Made by a program: the position numbers and the translations under genes | The notes under the pieces: model-generated | The model's database searches: none | Seen by the model: the letters and a program-made list of their open reading frames with translations, nothing else | What the model was told of the DNA's origin: nothing | In this document: positions 437 through 43,837 of the stretch, one piece after another | How positions within the stretch are numbered: the stretch's first letter is position 1 | Layout: each line of letters begins with the position of its first letter | Virus record (IMG/VR): IMGVR_UViG_2630968800_000004 | Origin: a virus | Lineage: Duplodnaviria > Heunggongvirae > Uroviricota > Caudoviricetes | Strand: one strand, 5' to 3' | DNA: 44,113 nucleotides

Positions 437-479
437 TGAGGTGTACTGGCAATAGCGGATACTACCATTTGTTCTTTTT

Positions 480-1298
480 TTAAGCAGCCATCTGATGATA
501 TTTTTCCCTGAAGGCTGCCGGGGAGATATTCCCCAGACGAGAGTGACGACGCTGACGATTGTAGAAAATCTCAATGTATTCCCGTATTACTGAGATGGCT
601 TCATCCCGGTTATTAAAACGATAGTGGCTCAGGCTCTCATTTTTCAGCGTTCCCCAGAAGCTTTCCATCGGAGCGTTGTCGTAACAGTTACCTTTACGCG
701 ACATTGATGTTTTCAGACCAGACTGCTCCTGTATGACCCGGTAATCGTATGCGCAGTACTGTGAACCTCGATCAGAGTGGTGGATTAGCCCGGCAGGTGG
801 GCGCTGGCTCCTGAGCGCCATAAACAGGGCTTTACCTGTCAGCTCTTTTGTCATGCGCTCTCCCATGGCGTAGCCGACAATTTCGCACGTATAAACATCT
901 TTGATGCCAGCGAGGTACAACCATCCCTCCTGTGTGGCAACATACGTCAGGTCCGCCACCCAGACCTGATTTGGTGCTGTAGGAGCGAACGTCTGGTTCA
1001 GCAGATTTGGCGCAACTGGCAGATTGTGGTTCGGGTTCGTAGTCGCTCTGAACTTGCGTTTCTGCTTACAGCGTAGCCTCAGCTCCTTACGAAGACGTGC
1101 CAGTCGGTCACGACCAACGATGATGCCATTCTCTGCCAGCTCCGTCTGGAGCCGCCGGGTTCCATATGTTTCGCGAGTGCGGATATGTGCCACCTTAATC
1201 TCCAGTTTTAGCCGCTCATCACTTTGTTTTCTGTCTGAGGGTTCATGCTGTACCCAGTTGTAATAACCGCTCCTGGATACACCAAATACCTGACACAT
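480..1298 (-). CDS. IS600 OrfB, DDE transposase catalytic subunit
   Basis: 272-aa ORF with rve-type integrase core; repeated 5 times in the window. Confidence 0.85.
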   Translation of the reverse strand: MCQVFGVSRSGYYNWVQHEPSDRKQSDERLKLEIKVAHIRTRETYGTRRLQTELAENGIIVGRDRLARLRKELRLRCKQKRKFRATTNPNHNLPVAPNLLNQTFAPTAPNQVWVADLTYVATQEGWLYLAGIKDVYTCEIVGYAMGERMTKELTGKALFMALRSQRPPAGLIHHSDRGSQYCAYDYRVIQEQSGLKTSMSRKGNCYDNAPMESFWGTLKNESLSHYRFNNRDEAISVIREYIEIFYNRQRRHSRLGNISPAAFREKYHQMAA

Positions 1299-1333
1299 CG
1301 CTTCAATGGGAAATTGTTGTCGCCATTGTTCGA

Positions 1334-1636
1334 TTAACGCGTATTTTTCAGCGACTCCTGTGCAAAATACGCTGTTGCTTTTTTTAATATATCTCGCTCA
1401 AGGCGAGCTTCATTTAACGCCTTACGCAGTTGCAGAATTTCAGATTCCAGTTCAGCCAGCGTGCGGGAACCAGGAGTACCGAGCCCTTTTCTGGCGGCGG
1501 TAACCCATTGTCCTAAAGTGCCTTCAGGAAGGGATAATCGGGAAGCGCCTTCACTGATTGAAAGTTGATTTTCAAGAACCGTTCTGACAGCTTCGGCTTT
1601 GAACTCTTTAGAGTAACGTTGGGTTTTTCTGCTCAT
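1334..1636 (-). CDS. IS600 OrfA, transposase HTH subunit
   Basis: 100-aa [21 protein letters not shown]..., IS3-family orfA signature. Confidence 0.85.
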   Translation of the reverse strand: MSRKTQRYSKEFKAEAVRTVLENQLSISEGASRLSLPEGTLGQWVTAARKGLGTPGSRTLAELESEILQLRKALNEARLERDILKKATAYFAQESLKNTR

Positions 1637-2163
1637 TATTAGCTCCTTCTGATGCCATTCTATTTCAGGAAGGAGTGTCCGTTAAACTCAGGCTACCTCA
1701 CTTATTCTAAGCAACCGGGTAGCATCATACGGGGCAATTATGGCCGCATTACCATACATGCAACTGTACATAGCTGATTACCTGGCTGACACCATGCATT
1801 TGTCAGCAGAGGAGCACGGCGCGTATTTGTTGCTGATGTTCAATTACTGGCAAACAGGAAAGCCAATACCCAAAAACAGGTTGGCAAAAATTGCCCGTCT
1901 GACTAACGAGCGATGGGTTGATGTTGAACCATCCTTGCGGGAGTTTTTTTGTGATAACGGCGACGAATGGATGCATCTTCGGATTGAGGAAGATCTGGCA
2001 TCTGTCAGAGAAAAATTAACCAAAAAATCAGCCGCAGGAAAAGCATCTGTTCAGGCCAGAAGAAGCAGAAAGGAAGCAGATGTTCAAACAAAACAAGAGA
2101 GAAATTTAACAGGTGTTCAAACAGATGTTGGAGTGGTGTTCGAACATGATGCTGGATTTGCCC

Positions 2164-3069
2164 TTATATTTCCAGACATCTGTTATCACTTAACCCATTA
2201 CAAGCCCGCTGCCGCAGATATTCCCGTGGCGAGCGATAACCCAGCGCACTATGCGGATGCCATTCGTTATAATGCTCGAACGCCTCTGCAAGGTTCTTTG
2301 CTGCCGTTAACCCGTCTGGTTTGGGCATGATACTGATGTAGTCACGCTTTATCGTTTTCACGAAGCTCTCTGCTATTCCGTTACTCTCCGGACTCCGCAC
2401 CGCCGTGTTCTTCGGTTCAAGTCCCAACATCCGGGCGAACTGGCGTGTTTCATTAGCCCGGTAGCATGAACCATTATCCGTCAGCCACTCCACTGGAGAC
2501 GACGGAAGATCGTTGCCGAAGCGGCGTTCCACCGCTCCCAGCATGACGTCCTGTACTGTTTCACTGTTGAAGCCGCCGGTAGTCCCCGCCCAGTGCAGTG
2601 CCTCACGATCACAGCAGTCCAGCGCGAACGTGACACGCAGTCTCTCTCCGTTATCACAGCAGAACTCGAACCCGTCAGAGCACCATCGCTGATTGCTTTC
2701 TTTCACGGCCACTCTGCCTGTATGTGCCCGTTTCGATGGCGGTACAGCAGGTTTTCGCTCAAGCAACAGCGCATTCTGGCGCATGAGCCGGTAAACACGT
2801 TTGGCATTGATCGCAGGCATACCATCAAGTTCTGCCTGTCTGCGAAGCAGCGCCCATACCCGACGATAACCATACGTGGGCAGCTCTCCGATAACATGGT
2901 GTATACGGAGAAGCACATCCGTATCATCAGTGTGACGACTGCGGCGGCCATCCATCCAGTCATCGGTTCGTCTGAGAATGACGTGCAACTGCGCACGCGA
3001 CACCCGGAGACAACGGCTGACTAAGCTTACTCCCCATCCCCGGGCAATAAGGGCGCGTGCGCTATCCAC
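2164..3069 (-). CDS. insD: IS2 InsD (orfB) transposase
   Basis: 301-aa [35 protein letters not shown]... Confidence 0.85.
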
Positions 3070-41634: not shown

Positions 41635-42424
41635 GTTGGAGTCATTACCGGTTGAATGTATTAATATGCAATGGTACGTGTCAGGGATTAAAAGATGAAC
41701 GTAAATTTATTCAACGCATTAATTTTAAAGGGTTTTATTGTTTGTTGACGAAAACAGGAATCATGTTCGGTCTCTTTTTATCTGTTAAAAGCCAGAAGCA
41801 TTTCCTTCGCTGACTTTATAGTCAACCATAACACACACTCTACTGTCTGAGTCCAGCGTTTTTTAACATTCTTGTTAAGATTATGTGATCTTTAGCGCGG
41901 GAGGAAAATATTGATGAAACAGCCTGCGCCCGTTTATCAGAGAATTGCGGGTCATCAATGGCGACATATCTGGCTTTCTGGCGATATACACGGTTGTCTT
42001 GAGCAGTTGCGCCGCAAATTATGGCATTGTCGTTTTGATCCGTGGCGAGATTTACTTATCTCAGTGGGAGACGTTATCGATCGTGGGCCGCAAAGTTTAC
42101 GTTGTCTGCAGTTACTGGAACAACATTGGGTTCGTGCGGTAAGAGGCAATCATGAACAGATGGCGATGGATGCGCTGGCATTCCAGCAGATGTCTTTGTG
42201 GTTGATGAATGGCGGCGACTGGTTTATTGCGCTGGCAGATAATCAACAGAAACAAGCGAAAACGGCGCTGGAAAAATGTCAGCATTTGCCCTTTATTCTT
42301 GAAGTACACAGTCGCACCGGCAAGCATGTTATTGCTCATGCCGATTATCCAGATGATGTTTGAGGTAGCCTGAGTTTAACGGACACTCCTTCCTGAAATA
42401 GAATGGCATCAGAAGGAGCTAATA

Positions 42425-42727
42425 ATGAGCAGAAAAACCCAACGTTACTCTAAAGAGTTCAAAGCCGAAGCTGTCAGAACGGTTCTTGAAAATCAACTTT
42501 CGATCAGTGAAGGCGCTTCCCGATTATCCCTTCCTGAAGGCACTTTAGGACAATGGGTTACCGCCGCCAGAAAAGGGCTCGGTACTCCTGGTTCCCGCAC
42601 GGTGGCTGAACTGGAATCTGAAATTCTGCAACTGCGTAAGGCGTTAAATGAAGCTCGCCTTGAGCGCGATATATTAAAAAAAGCAACAGCGTATTTTGCA
42701 CAGGAGTCGCTGAAAAATACGCGTTAA
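42425..42727 (+). CDS. IS600 OrfA
   Basis: 100-aa ORF. Confidence 0.85.
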   Translation: MSRKTQRYSKEFKAEAVRTVLENQLSISEGASRLSLPEGTLGQWVTAARKGLGTPGSRTVAELESEILQLRKALNEARLERDILKKATAYFAQESLKNTR

Positions 42728-42762
42728 TCGAACAATGGCGACAACAATTTCCCATTGAAGCG

Positions 42763-43581
42763 ATGTGTCAGGTATTTGGTGTATCCAGGAGCGGTTATTA
42801 CAACTGGGTACAGCATGAACCCTCAGACAGAAAACAAAGTGATGAGCGGCTAAAACCGGAGATTAAGGTGGCACATATCCGCACTCGCGAAACATATGGA
42901 ACCCGGCGGCTCCAGACGGAGCTGGCAGAGAATGGCATCATCGTTGGTCGTGACCGACTGGCACGTCTTCGTAAGGAGCTGAGGCTACGCTGTAAGCAGA
43001 AACGCAAGTTCAGAGCGACTACGAACCCGAACCACAATCTGCCAGTTGCGCCAAATCTGCTGAACCAGACGTTCGCTCCTACAGCACCAAATCAGGTCTG
43101 GGTGGCGGACCTGACGTATGTTGCCACACAGGAGGGATGGTTGTACCTCGCTGGCATCAAAGATGTTTATACGTGCGAAATTGTCGGCTACGCCATGGGA
43201 GAGCGCATGACAAAAGAGCTGACAGGTAAAGCCCTGTTTATGGCGCTCAGGAGCCAGCGCCCACCTGCCGGGCTAATCCACTACTCTGATCGAGGTTCAC
43301 AGTACTGCGCATACGATTACCGGGTCATACAGGAGCAGTCTGGTCTGAAAACATCAATGTCGCGTAAAGGTAACTGTTACGACAACGCTCCGATGGAAAG
43401 CTTCTGGGGAACGCTGAAAAATGAGAGCCTGAGCCACTATCGTTTTAATAACCGGGATGAAGCCATCTCAGTAATACGGGAATACATTGAGATTTTCTAC
43501 AATCGTCAGCGTCGTCACTCTCGTCTGGGGAATATCTCCCCGGCAGCCTTCAGGGAAAAATATCATCAGATGGCTGCTTAA
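42763..43581 (+). CDS. IS600 OrfB
   Basis: 272-aa ORF. Confidence 0.85.
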   Translation: MCQVFGVSRSGYYNWVQHEPSDRKQSDERLKPEIKVAHIRTRETYGTRRLQTELAENGIIVGRDRLARLRKELRLRCKQKRKFRATTNPNHNLPVAPNLLNQTFAPTAPNQVWVADLTYVATQEGWLYLAGIKDVYTCEIVGYAMGERMTKELTGKALFMALRSQRPPAGLIHYSDRGSQYCAYDYRVIQEQSGLKTSMSRKGNCYDNAPMESFWGTLKNESLSHYRFNNRDEAISVIREYIEIFYNRQRRHSRLGNISPAAFREKYHQMAA

Positions 43582-43837
43582 AAAAAGAACAAATGGTAGT
43601 GTCCGCTATTGCCAGTACACCTCAGTTTATGAATGGCAAAAGGACGTTGATTTGCATCAGGTCTTGTGGAGCCGCTCGCGATTAGGTGAACGCCCAAAAG
43701 GGCAGGGAATTACAGGTGCTGATCATTTCTGGTTTGGTCATACACCGTTGCGACATCGCGTGGATATTGGCAACCTGCATTATATTGATACCGGTGCTGT
43801 CTTTGGGGGCTAACTGACTCTTGTGCAACTGCAATAA

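What the first reader, a model, noticed from the sequence alone, without database searches (positions are those of the whole stretch)
437..43624. Two classes of IS copies: simple insertions with target duplications versus recombined junctions without them
Seen in sequence: intact TSDs flank IS2 copy 1 (GATGC), IS2 copy 2 (GCAGC), IS600 copy 2 (CAG), IS600 copy 4 (GTT), IS1 copy 1 (CTGTTAGTA) and IS1 copy 4 (GGTTGAATG). IS600 copy 1, IS600 copy 3, IS911, IS1 copy 2 and IS1 copy 3 have mismatched flanks and join unrelated DNA (LysR gene to phage replication region, T7-like cassette to Rha fragment, IS1 directly to a 5'-deleted IS600, integrase C-terminus to integrase N-terminus). Established knowledge: mismatched flanks indicate IS-mediated deletion, inversion or inter-copy recombination.
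Basis: partly seen in the sequence, partly recalled or inferred. Interest (0 to 1): 0.45.

Follow-up and report, generated by a model that had tools for sequence, protein, structure and literature searches.

The report
Insertion-sequence scars in Shigella prophage region
This stretch of a Shigella flexneri chromosome is one-third insertion sequences: half are clean insertions and half have since deleted or recombined the DNA beside them, which is the ordinary, well-documented way Shigella genomes decay.

Summary
The window is Shigella flexneri 2a G1663 (CP007037.1), a decayed double prophage carrying sitABCD and ipaH3. Each also has an IS-free "empty site" in E. coli/EIEC relatives. All five "mismatched" copies are real too. 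The inventory was incomplete. It missed a sixth mismatched element (IS629/IS1203-like, 27661-28966) and three stubs: IS600 12 bp, IS911 62 bp, IS66-family 464 bp.

"Joins unrelated DNA" holds only for IS600 copy 1 and the IS1/IS600' composite. IS911, IS1 copy 3, IS600 copy 3 and IS629 each sit beside a local 0.36-0.5 kb deletion inside one gene or island.

Other S. flexneri strains preserve intermediates:
- 2457T keeps IS600 copy 1 with TSD TCC and its native flank.
- Two strains keep IS911 with TSD TCT plus the 455 bp missing here.
- M90T has a 9.7 kb larger deletion anchored on the same IS1 end.
- IS1 copy 1 and IS600 copy 2, clean here, are recombined in other strains.

So the two "classes" are successive states of the same elements. 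Low novelty. The three perfect T7 promoters at 15331-15593 deserve separate attention.

The parts
437..1700 (-). IS600 copy 1, full length (1264 bp), no TSD (tcc / ctt). It joins pgrR codon ~146 to codon 5 of prophage ydaU. It is a hybrid IS.
   Evidence: The left flank is pgrR. The flanks are 28.8 kb apart in VL40. The same IS600 in 2457T has TSD TCC and the native pgrR-mppA flank. The SNP pattern suggests a crossover between IS coordinates 169 and 242.
2153..3483 (-). IS2 copy 1 (1331 bp), 5-bp TSD GATGC, simple insertion in ydaU.
   Evidence: Empty site in FDAARGOS_944: L001 17554-18005 and 18001-19945 overlap by 5 bp.
8634..9388 (-). IS1 copy 1 (755 bp; lacks IS1 coordinates 513-525), 9-bp TSD CTGTTAGTA, simple insertion.
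   Evidence: Empty site in L001. The same copy in S. flexneri CP054913.1 is 768 bp and has a foreign right flank (yobD region) with no TSD.
11231..12494 (+). IS600 copy 2, TSD CAG, simple insertion.
   Evidence: Empty site in L001 with a 3-bp overlap. In AMJV01000077.1 and AMJY01000066.1 this copy has recombined with the truncated IS600 at 18089, removing 6.5 kb.
15991..17239 (+). IS911-like element (IS3 family, 1249 bp), flanks tct / gtt, with a 455-bp deletion starting exactly at its right end.
   Evidence: Ends. 95% identical to the annotated ISEc52 in L001. CP037996.1 and CP045941.1 have the same insertion with TSD TCT plus the 455 bp. CP130061.1 has the empty site.
17321..18088 (+). IS1 copy 2, no TSD. 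Its left flank is an 81-bp Rha-gene stub of the island. Its right end is fused to the truncated IS600.
   Evidence: In CP037996.1 the same IS1 end meets IS600 25 bp further in, at coordinate 341 rather than 316.
18089..19037 (+). IS600 lacking its first 315 bp. Its right flank is a tail-fibre gene. Together with IS1 copy 2 it marks loss of about 23 kb of lysis, head and tail genes plus the rest of the island.
26547..27314 (+). IS1 copy 3 inside the prophage integrase gene intR, no TSD, with 422-424 bp of intR missing.
   Evidence: M90T has the same left junction, but its right flank is at window 36973, a further 9,658 bp deleted.
27661..28966 (-). Flanks ggc / ttc, no TSD, with about 361-364 bp (xisR 5' end, DUF1187 gene) missing.
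30385..31648 (+). IS600 copy 3, flanks ctc / cag. 504 bp at the gam/recE boundary is missing.
   Evidence: The junction is present in every S. flexneri assembly returned.
31649..31660 (-). 12-bp relic (CAGGCTACCTCA) of the IRL tip of a second, inverted IS600.
   Evidence: Read directly from the sequence. It is the reverse complement of IS600 bases 1-12.
33984..35314 (-). IS2 copy 2, TSD GCAGC, simple insertion at the 3' end of a Rha-family gene.
   Evidence: The in-silico excised query is contiguous in 54 genomes. It aligns without a gap across the junction in EPSSH018.
37233..37294 (+). 62-bp IS911 IRL stub.
   Evidence: Identical to 15990-16051.
37295..37758 (+). 464-bp fragment of an IS66-family tnpA gene. 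With the IS911 stub it joins the ydfC region to a tail-fibre fragment, with about 26 kb missing relative to VL40.
   Evidence: 100% identical to annotated IS66-like tnpA on large plasmids in the E. coli genome set. Flanks.
40882..41649 (+). IS1 copy 4, TSD GGTTGAATG, simple insertion between ipaH3 and pphA.
   Evidence: Empty site in VL40, VL7S7, O121 201805972, FDAARGOS_943 and RMDEC465.
42361..43624 (+). IS600 copy 4, TSD GTT, simple insertion that disrupts pphA.

Best explanation
Every IS copy here arrived by ordinary transposition. That makes a short duplication of the target: 9 bp for IS1, 5 bp for IS2, 3 bp for IS600 and IS911.

Six copies are still in that state. The others were altered afterwards by two known routes.

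(1) Homologous recombination between two copies of the same IS. This leaves one hybrid copy carrying one flank from each parent. IS600 copy 1 is such a hybrid. It most likely came from a large inversion between the pgrR copy and a copy in ydaU.

(2) Deletions anchored exactly on one IS end. These remove the adjacent DNA and that side's duplication. They explain IS911 (455 bp), IS1 copy 3 (about 0.42 kb), IS1 copy 2 running into IS600, IS629 (about 0.36 kb) and IS600 copy 3 (0.5 kb, after one IS600 landed in the tip of another).

Shown: the TSDs, the empty sites, the ancestral TSD-bearing states of IS600 copy 1 and IS911, and the nested deletions sharing one IS1 end. Inferred: that the anchored deletions are transposase-driven rather than due to a lost second copy, and that the IS600 copy 1 event was an inversion rather than a deletion.
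For: - TSDs and IS ends.
- Empty sites for all six TSD copies.
- IS600 copy 1: 2457T carries the identical pgrR::IS600 left junction, but with TSD TCC/TCC and the rest of pgrR, mppA, ynaI, uspE and fnr to the right. The window copy is identical to the 2457T copy over IS coordinates 170-1264, apart from one N in the 2457T record at coordinate 313. That includes alleles 242C and 1241A, private to these two among the copies compared. The copies differ at coordinates 142 and 169, next to the ydaU flank.
- IS911: empty site in CP130061.1. TSD TCT with the native flank in CP037996.1 and CP045941.1. In the window the 455 bp next to the IS right end is gone.
- IS1 copy 3: same IS and same left flank, but different right flanks in G1663 and M90T, 9,658 bp apart.
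- IS1 copy 2: IS600 is truncated at coordinate 316 here and 341 in CP037996.1.
- The process also runs the other way. IS1 copy 1 and IS600 copy 2, clean here, are recombined in CP054913.1 and in AMJV01000077.1/AMJY01000066.1.
- Junction boundaries coincide to the base with the IS termini when aligned to VL40.
- The junctions are not assembly artefacts. Junction-spanning ORFs recur in many independent assemblies, listed in 68 to 865 index blocks.
- Literature: IS-mediated inversions, translocations and deletions in S. flexneri (PMC1550401; PMC7373316).
Against: - No ancestral TSD-bearing state was found for IS1 copy 3, IS629, IS600 copy 3 or the IS1/IS600' composite. Their histories are inferred from missing DNA relative to E. 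coli VL40, which is not the direct ancestor.
- The partner IS600 in ydaU, with its expected TSD CTT, was not recovered. Inversion versus deletion is therefore unresolved.
- The hybrid-IS argument rests on two SNPs.
- Sequence alone cannot separate transposase-mediated adjacent deletion from recombination with a second, now lost, nearby copy.
Confidence: 0.85

Rival explanations
1. The small deletions beside IS911, IS1 copy 3, IS629 and IS600 copy 3 arose from a second copy. A second copy of the same IS inserted a few hundred bp away in direct orientation, and the two copies then recombined. No transposase-driven adjacent deletion was involved.
For: The end product is identical in sequence: one IS, no TSD, the intervening DNA gone. 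Such inter-copy recombination demonstrably happens in this region, as in the 6.5-kb IS600 copy 2 x IS600' deletion in other strains. The 12-bp IS600 relic shows that two IS600 copies did land within about 0.5 kb of each other.
Against: It needs four separate pairs of same-family insertions within 0.36-0.5 kb. No strain recovered shows such a pair. The IS911 intermediates carry a single copy. Series of deletions sharing one fixed IS1 end are, from my own knowledge of the literature, the classical signature of IS1 adjacent deletion.
Confidence: 0.25
2. The IS600 copy 1 junction is a simple 28.8-kb deletion between two directly oriented IS600 copies. It removed mppA through ttcA plus the prophage left arm. 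It is not an inversion breakpoint.
For: In VL40 the two flanks lie 28.8 kb apart in the same orientation.
Against: - The supposedly deleted prophage left arm (att core, intR, xisR, AAA ATPase, gam) is present in the window at 25806-30384, 99.65-99.7% identical to VL40's.
- It is joined to sitA by an attP-type site.
- The window runs from pgrR straight to pphA-yebW, which lie about 0.5 Mb away and in reversed order in K-12 (K-12 positions from my own knowledge).
- M90T holds the intR'-sitA block in the opposite orientation at 1.78 Mb, against 1.40 Mb in G1663.
- An IS600-mediated inversion between S. flexneri serotypes is reported (PMC1550401).
Confidence: 0.15
3. The mismatched flanks are decayed TSDs changed by point mutation, or they are assembly errors at repeats.
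For: 3-bp TSDs are easily lost to a single substitution. IS-rich genomes are prone to misassembly.
Against: Comparators show the flanks are not contiguous: 0.36 kb to 28.8 kb is missing. The same junction-spanning ORFs occur in many independent complete and draft assemblies.
Confidence: 0.02

Closest known systems
IS-driven genome decay and rearrangement in Shigella (Jin 2002, Wei 2003 and Yang 2005 from my own knowledge; Nie 2006 PMC1550401; Hawkey 2020 PMC7373316)
   Same: The same organism, the same IS families (IS1, IS2, IS600, IS911, IS629, IS66 family) and the same outcomes: gene disruption, deletions, and inversions between homologous copies, including an IS600-mediated inversion between serotypes.
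   Different: Nothing in kind. This window only adds a base-level, strain-by-strain reconstruction for one 44-kb locus.
IS1-mediated adjacent deletions (Reif and Saedler 1975, gal region of E. coli; from my own knowledge)
   Same: The IS and one flank are retained, and variable amounts of DNA are removed from one fixed IS end. That pattern appears at the right end of IS1 copy 3 (0.42 kb here, 10 kb in M90T) and of IS1 copy 2 (IS600 coordinate 316 versus 341).
   Different: Here the events are inferred from natural isolates, not selected in the laboratory. Transposase dependence is not shown.
Inter-IS homologous recombination on the Shigella virulence plasmid (Pilla et al. 2017, PMC5629016, listed)
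   Same: Recombination between IS copies removes or reorders the DNA between them. It leaves a hybrid copy without a TSD, as at IS600 copy 1 here and at IS600 copy 2 x IS600' in other strains.
   Different: Chromosomal prophage DNA rather than pINV. I read only the abstract of that paper.
IS3-family insertion next to or into IR-like sequences (IS911 target-choice work from the Chandler laboratory; recalled from memory, a lead only)
   Same: IS600 copy 3 abuts the last 12 bp of the IRL of another, inverted IS600.
   Different: Not tested. The relic could equally be the end point of a deletion that happened to stop inside a neighbouring IS600.

Membership tests
IS600 (IS3 family) | About 1264 bp with terminal inverted repeats starting TG and ending CA | tested here: met
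   Four copies of exactly 1264 bp, TGAGGTAGCC...CACCTCA, 99.4-99.8% identical to one another. They are 99.5% identical to the VL40 element annotated 'IS3-like element IS600 family transposase'.
IS600 (IS3 family) | OrfA (HTH) and OrfB (DDE/rve) in two overlapping frames | tested here: met
   100-aa and 272-aa ORFs in each copy. Pfam HTH_Tnp_1 and rve appear on the called genes.
IS600 (IS3 family) | 3-bp target duplication | tested here: met
   CAG and GTT here. TCC for the pgrR copy in 2457T.
IS1 | 768 bp, ends GGTAATG...CATTACC, insA/insB genes, 9-bp target duplication | tested here: met
   Three copies of 768 bp and one of 755 bp. 9-bp TSDs at two copies. 99.5-99.6% identical to the annotated 'IS1 family transposase' element in VL7S7.
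IS2 (IS3 family) | 1331 bp, 5-bp target duplication, OrfA/OrfB | tested here: met
   Two copies of 1331 bp at 99.7% identity, with 5-bp TSDs. HTH_Tnp_1 and rve domains on the called genes. The name IS2 rests on length, TSD size and end sequences recalled from memory. No reference IS2 sequence was compared.
IS911 (IS3 family) | About 1250 bp, IRL TGAAGTGGCACACTGAATTTGGCCACC, OrfA/OrfB, 3-bp target duplication | tested here: inconclusive
   1249 bp with the expected ends and ORFs. 3-bp TSD TCT in two other strains. However, the only annotated element compared is ISEc52, at 95% identity. 'IS911-like' is therefore the safe name.
IS629 / IS1203 (IS3 family) | About 1310 bp, ends TGAACCGCCCCGGG...CCCGGGGCGGTTCA, frameshift pseudoknot | tested here: met
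   1306 bp with matching ends. rve-domain ORF. RefSeq annotations over the matching DNA read 'IS3-like element IS1203 family transposase' and 'AL1L pseudoknot'. No TSD at this copy.
IS-end-anchored (adjacent) deletion | An ancestor with the same IS carries a TSD. The derived state lacks DNA starting exactly at one IS end. | tested here: met
   IS911: TSD TCT plus 455 bp in CP037996.1 and CP045941.1, absent in the window.
IS-end-anchored (adjacent) deletion | A nested series of deletions sharing one fixed IS end | tested here: met
   IS1 copy 3 in G1663 versus M90T. IS1 copy 2 in G1663 versus CP037996.1.
IS-end-anchored (adjacent) deletion | Dependence on the transposase and independence from RecA | not testable with these tools
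   This needs genetics.
Inter-copy homologous recombination | Each flank is found beside its own TSD-bearing copy in a relative | tested here: inconclusive
   Met for the pgrR flank in 2457T. The ydaU-side parent was not recovered.
Inter-copy homologous recombination | The resulting IS is a sequence hybrid of two copies | tested here: met
   IS600 copy 1 matches the 2457T pgrR copy over coordinates 170-1264. It differs at coordinates 142 and 169. Only two informative sites.

The most novel reading that the evidence does not exclude
IS3-family elements (IS911, IS629, IS600) in S. flexneri, not only IS1, may repeatedly make short (0.36-0.5 kb) deletions anchored precisely on one end, through a transposase-dependent route that can use pseudo-ends. 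The 455-bp segment lost beside IS911 ends in ACCTCA, a 5-of-6 match to the IS911 terminus ACTTCA. On this reading, the locus with its strain-preserved intermediates is a natural time series from which rates of IS-driven prophage erosion could be measured.
Probability: 0.15. Interest if true: 0.35.

Novelty: already known. Interest (0 to 1): 0.15.

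Why it matters
As a discovery it matters little. IS expansion followed by IS-mediated deletion and inversion is the accepted account of how Shigella genomes decay. Reading TSD presence or absence as 'simple insertion versus later rearrangement' is standard practice.

The practical value lies in annotation. The window is a composite of two eroded prophages, one carrying sit and one carrying ipaH3, plus a stub of a tRNA-Gly island. Three mismatched junctions mark tens of kb of lost or displaced DNA, and four mark sub-kb losses. 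The state of a given IS copy differs between S. flexneri strains, so these junctions are usable lineage markers. A TSD check on one reference genome does not generalise to the species.

Tried and rejected
- Reciprocal flank swaps inside the window. None of the orphan 3-bp or 9-bp flanks pair up, so the partners lie outside the window or were lost.
- The 713-bp repeat at 21083-21795 / 37759-38470 looked at first like a second IS911 pair. It is a tail-fibre/DUF4376 gene segment.
- abgR as the identity of the LysR gene at 1-436. There was no match, and the gene is pgrR.
- A scan of GTDB species representatives for the IS1-IS600' junction and for the predicted ydaU'-IS600 parental junction gave 0 hits each. 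Shigella seems not to be represented there, so this is uninformative.
- An IMG/VR scan for the predicted parental junction gave 0 hits, while the window-type junction gave 2. This is inconclusive because provirus contigs need not include the distant reciprocal site.
- Look-ups of two YdaU fragments to recover the 2457T partner copy. Only window-type contexts were returned.
- Microhomology at deletion junctions. It was seen only at IS911 (5 of 6) and not at IS1 copy 3, IS629 or IS600 copy 3.
- VL40's own IS600 in recE as the origin of the 12-bp relic. It is a different insertion site.
- Wei et al. 2003 (PMC153260) is not held in the library.

Full report
SOURCE AND SETTING

The window is identical to Shigella flexneri 2a strain G1663 chromosome CP007037.1, positions 1373871-1417983. 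There were 0 mismatches over the four loci sampled, which cover about 25.5 kb. The strain name comes from PMC9455713.

Comparison with E. coli and EIEC-like genomes gives the following layout (local BLAST):
- pgrR' (1-436)
- IS600
- the right two-thirds of a rac-like prophage: 'ydaU, ydaV ... ORF6N and four tRNAs, to 13523
- a stub of an integrative island that sits in the phage tRNA-Gly: a 534-aa integrase, three T7 promoters and a Rha stub
- IS911, IS1 and a truncated IS600
- tail-fibre genes and sitDCBA (22026-25475)
- an attP-type junction (core at about 25806-25848)
- intR::IS1, xisR', IS629, AAA ATPase, gam, IS600, recE, IS2, Rha, ydfC
- an IS911 stub and an IS66 fragment
- a tail-fibre fragment and ipaH3 (38680-40395, minus strand)
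- IS1
- pphA::IS600
- yebW

IS sequence makes up 33.6% of the window.

CHECK OF THE OBSERVATION

Self-BLAST and inspection of the termini fix the elements to the base.
- IS2 2153-3483, GATGC
- IS2 33984-35314, GCAGC
- IS600 11231-12494, CAG
- IS600 42361-43624, GTT
- IS1 8634-9388, CTGTTAGTA
- IS1 40882-41649, GGTTGAATG

A 3-bp match occurs by chance once in 64, so the two IS600 cases are weak alone. Every one of the six nevertheless has an IS-free empty site with a single copy of the duplicated bases:
- IS2 copy 1, IS1 copy 1 and IS600 copy 2 in FDAARGOS_944. The alignments of the two flanks overlap there by 5, 10 and 3 bp.
- IS1 copy 4 and IS600 copy 4 together. The in-silico excised 1674-bp sequence matches as a single piece, with 100% coverage and 99.3% identity, in VL40, VL7S7 and O121 201805972. 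It matches at 99.1% in FDAARGOS_943 and 98.2% in RMDEC465.
- IS2 copy 2, ungapped across the junction in a diverged homolog.

The five mismatches are also real.

- a full-length IS629/IS1203-like element without a TSD at 27661-28966
- a 12-bp inverted IS600 IRL tip at 31649-31660
- a 62-bp IS911 IRL stub at 37233-37294
- a 464-bp IS66-family tnpA fragment at 37295-37758

WHAT THE MISMATCHED COPIES JOIN

Only some join distant DNA.

IS600 copy 1 joins pgrR to ydaU. These lie 28.8 kb apart in VL40.

The IS1 copy 2 / truncated IS600 composite joins the island's Rha stub to a tail-fibre gene. About 23 kb of lysis, head and tail genes, plus the rest of the island, are skipped.

The IS911 stub and IS66 fragment join ydfC to a tail-fibre fragment, skipping about 26 kb.

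The rest are local events:
- IS911 lies between the T7-promoter cassette and a Rha gene. These are natural neighbours in the homologous island at the chromosomal tRNA-Gly of E. coli 21AR0133.
- IS1 copy 3 sits inside intR with 422-424 bp missing.
- IS629 has about 361-364 bp missing.
- IS600 copy 3 has 504 bp missing.
In each of these last three the IS terminus abuts comparator sequence exactly.

INTERMEDIATES IN OTHER S. FLEXNERI STRAINS

Exact look-ups of junction-spanning ORFs recovered several informative states.

(a) IS600 copy 1. In 2457T (AE014073.1) the same IS600 sits at the same pgrR position. There it has TSD TCC/TCC and the native continuation: the rest of pgrR, mppA, ynaI, uspE and fnr. 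The window copy is identical to it over IS coordinates 170-1264, apart from one N in the 2457T record. That stretch includes two alleles private to these two copies. The copies differ at coordinates 142 and 169, on the ydaU side. This is the pattern expected of a crossover inside the IS.

(b) IS911. CP130061.1 has the empty site. CP037996.1 and CP045941.1 have the insertion with TSD TCT and a native right flank. G1663 lacks the 455 bp immediately right of the element.

(c) IS1 copy 3. M90T (CP037923.1) has the same IS and the same left flank, but its right flank lies at window 36973. That is 9,658 bp more deleted.

(d) IS1 copy 2. In CP037996.1 the same IS1 end meets IS600 at coordinate 341 instead of 316.

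(e) The reverse direction.
- IS1 copy 1, clean here, has a foreign right flank (yobD region) in CP054913.1.
- IS600 copy 2, clean here, has recombined with the truncated IS600 in AMJV01000077.1 and AMJY01000066.1. This leaves one full-length IS600 and removes 6.5 kb.
- The IS600 copy 3 junction is the same in every assembly returned, so it appears to be old and fixed.

MECHANISM

The two 'classes' are successive states of the same elements. First comes insertion with a TSD. Later comes either inter-copy homologous recombination or a deletion anchored on one IS end.

The nested series sharing the IRR end of IS1 is the classical adjacent-deletion signature (my own knowledge). The IS3-family cases could be transposase-driven, or could reflect recombination with a lost second copy. 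Sequence alone cannot decide this. I give the second option about 0.25.

For IS600 copy 1 I favour a large inversion over a 28.8-kb deletion, for four reasons:
- The 'deleted' prophage left arm is present in the window at 25806-30384, 99.65-99.7% identical to VL40's.
- The window runs from pgrR to pphA-yebW in reversed K-12 order (K-12 positions from my own knowledge).
- M90T holds the intR'-sitA block in the opposite orientation at 1.78 Mb, against 1.40 Mb in G1663. I did not verify that the two records share origin and orientation.
- An IS600-mediated inversion between S. flexneri serotypes is published (PMC1550401).
The partner junction was not recovered. This step remains inference.

COMPARISON WITH WHAT IS KNOWN

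All of this is established. IS-mediated disruption, deletion, inversion and translocation have been described for S. flexneri and for Shigella generally (PMC1550401; PMC7373316). It has also been described for the virulence plasmid (PMC5629016).

The element identities pass their defining tests, with two reservations. 'IS911' was compared only with an annotated ISEc52 at 95% identity. 'IS2' was named from length, TSD size and remembered end sequences.

VERDICT

- Observation: essentially right, but incomplete, and partly mis-described ('unrelated DNA').
- Interpretation: supported.
- Novelty: none in kind.
- Interest: 0.15.

The more unusual objects in the window lie outside this finding: the triple perfect T7 promoter island stub and the attP-type junction of a permuted prophage. 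Both are listed under things noticed in passing.

Noticed in passing
window 13449-17320 (promoters at 15331-15353, 15451-15473, 15571-15593, + strand): Three tandem 120-bp units each carry a perfect 23-bp T7 class III promoter, TAATACGACTCACTATAGGGAGA (0 expected by chance). They lie between a 534-aa tyrosine integrase, which abuts the prophage-borne tRNA-Gly(TCC), and AT-rich TTAACTTAAAG repeats followed by a Rha-family gene stub. The homologous island in E. coli 21AR0133 sits at a chromosomal tRNA-Gly next to actS. It has two perfect promoters and continues with Rha, DUF6971 and a second integrase. 381 of 5426 E. coli genomes match, and promoter copy number varies from 1 to 3 between strains. 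This looks like an island wired to respond to a T7-group phage RNA polymerase (a satellite or a defence element?). A quick literature search found no description. Here it is a dead stub..
   Followed up: partly
window 25760-25900 (core about 25806-25848): An attP-type site. The phage-side arm of attR (downstream of sitA), a 26-bp perfect core and the phage-side arm of attL (intR) are joined. The rac-like sit prophage is therefore circularly permuted (ydaU...sitA-attP-intR...) and continues into the ipaH3 prophage next to pphA. The junction is conserved in every S. flexneri assembly returned. My model is that the sit prophage excised and re-entered the yebY/pphA prophage by a crossover in the shared, 99.6%-identical AAA-ATPase/gam module. 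A tandem lysogen is the alternative..
   Followed up: partly
window 31649-31660: A 12-bp relic (CAGGCTACCTCA) of the IRL tip of a second, inverted IS600 lies directly after IS600 copy 3. One IS600 either landed in, or was deleted up to, the terminal repeat of another. The junction is fixed across strains..
   Followed up: partly
window 21083-21902 and 37759-38470, 40680-40744: Two 97%-identical tail-fibre/DUF4376 segments are each followed by a different cargo at the equivalent position: sitDCBA in one prophage and ipaH3 in the other. A short 85%-identical sequence (21837-21902 and 40680-40744) lies beyond each. VL40 has a third version carrying ipaHd. This suggests a shared cargo (moron) slot at the right end of these lambdoid prophages..
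   Followed up: no
window 8634-9388: IS1 copy 1 lacks 13 bp (IS1 coordinates 513-525, inside insB) in G1663 only. The same copy is 768 bp in the other S. flexneri strains examined. It is therefore a defective copy or an assembly slip private to this record..
   Followed up: partly
window 17234-17245; L048 2239-2244: The 455-bp segment deleted beside IS911 ends in ACCTCA, a 5-of-6 match to the IS911 terminus ACTTCA (chance about 0.005). No comparable similarity is seen at the other three small-deletion junctions..
   Followed up: partly
L036 (CP034060.1), L043 (CP130061.1), L049/L052-L054: Further strain-specific IS events occur in this locus. An IS911 end abuts window 29313 inside the AAA ATPase gene. 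An inverted IS911 lies in the island integrase gene at window 14822/14823. Extra IS copies sit in gam/AAA in several strains. The locus is a hotspot of ongoing IS activity..
   Followed up: no
L002 (E. coli VL7S7) and L007/L008 (VL40): The EIEC-like E. coli comparators are themselves rearranged between prophages. VL7S7 joins the yebY-side prophage left arm, through an IS1, to the sit end next to uspF. VL40 joins the ttcA prophage to an ipaHd end next to yecD. Inter-prophage inversions around the terminus seem common in this group..
   Followed up: no
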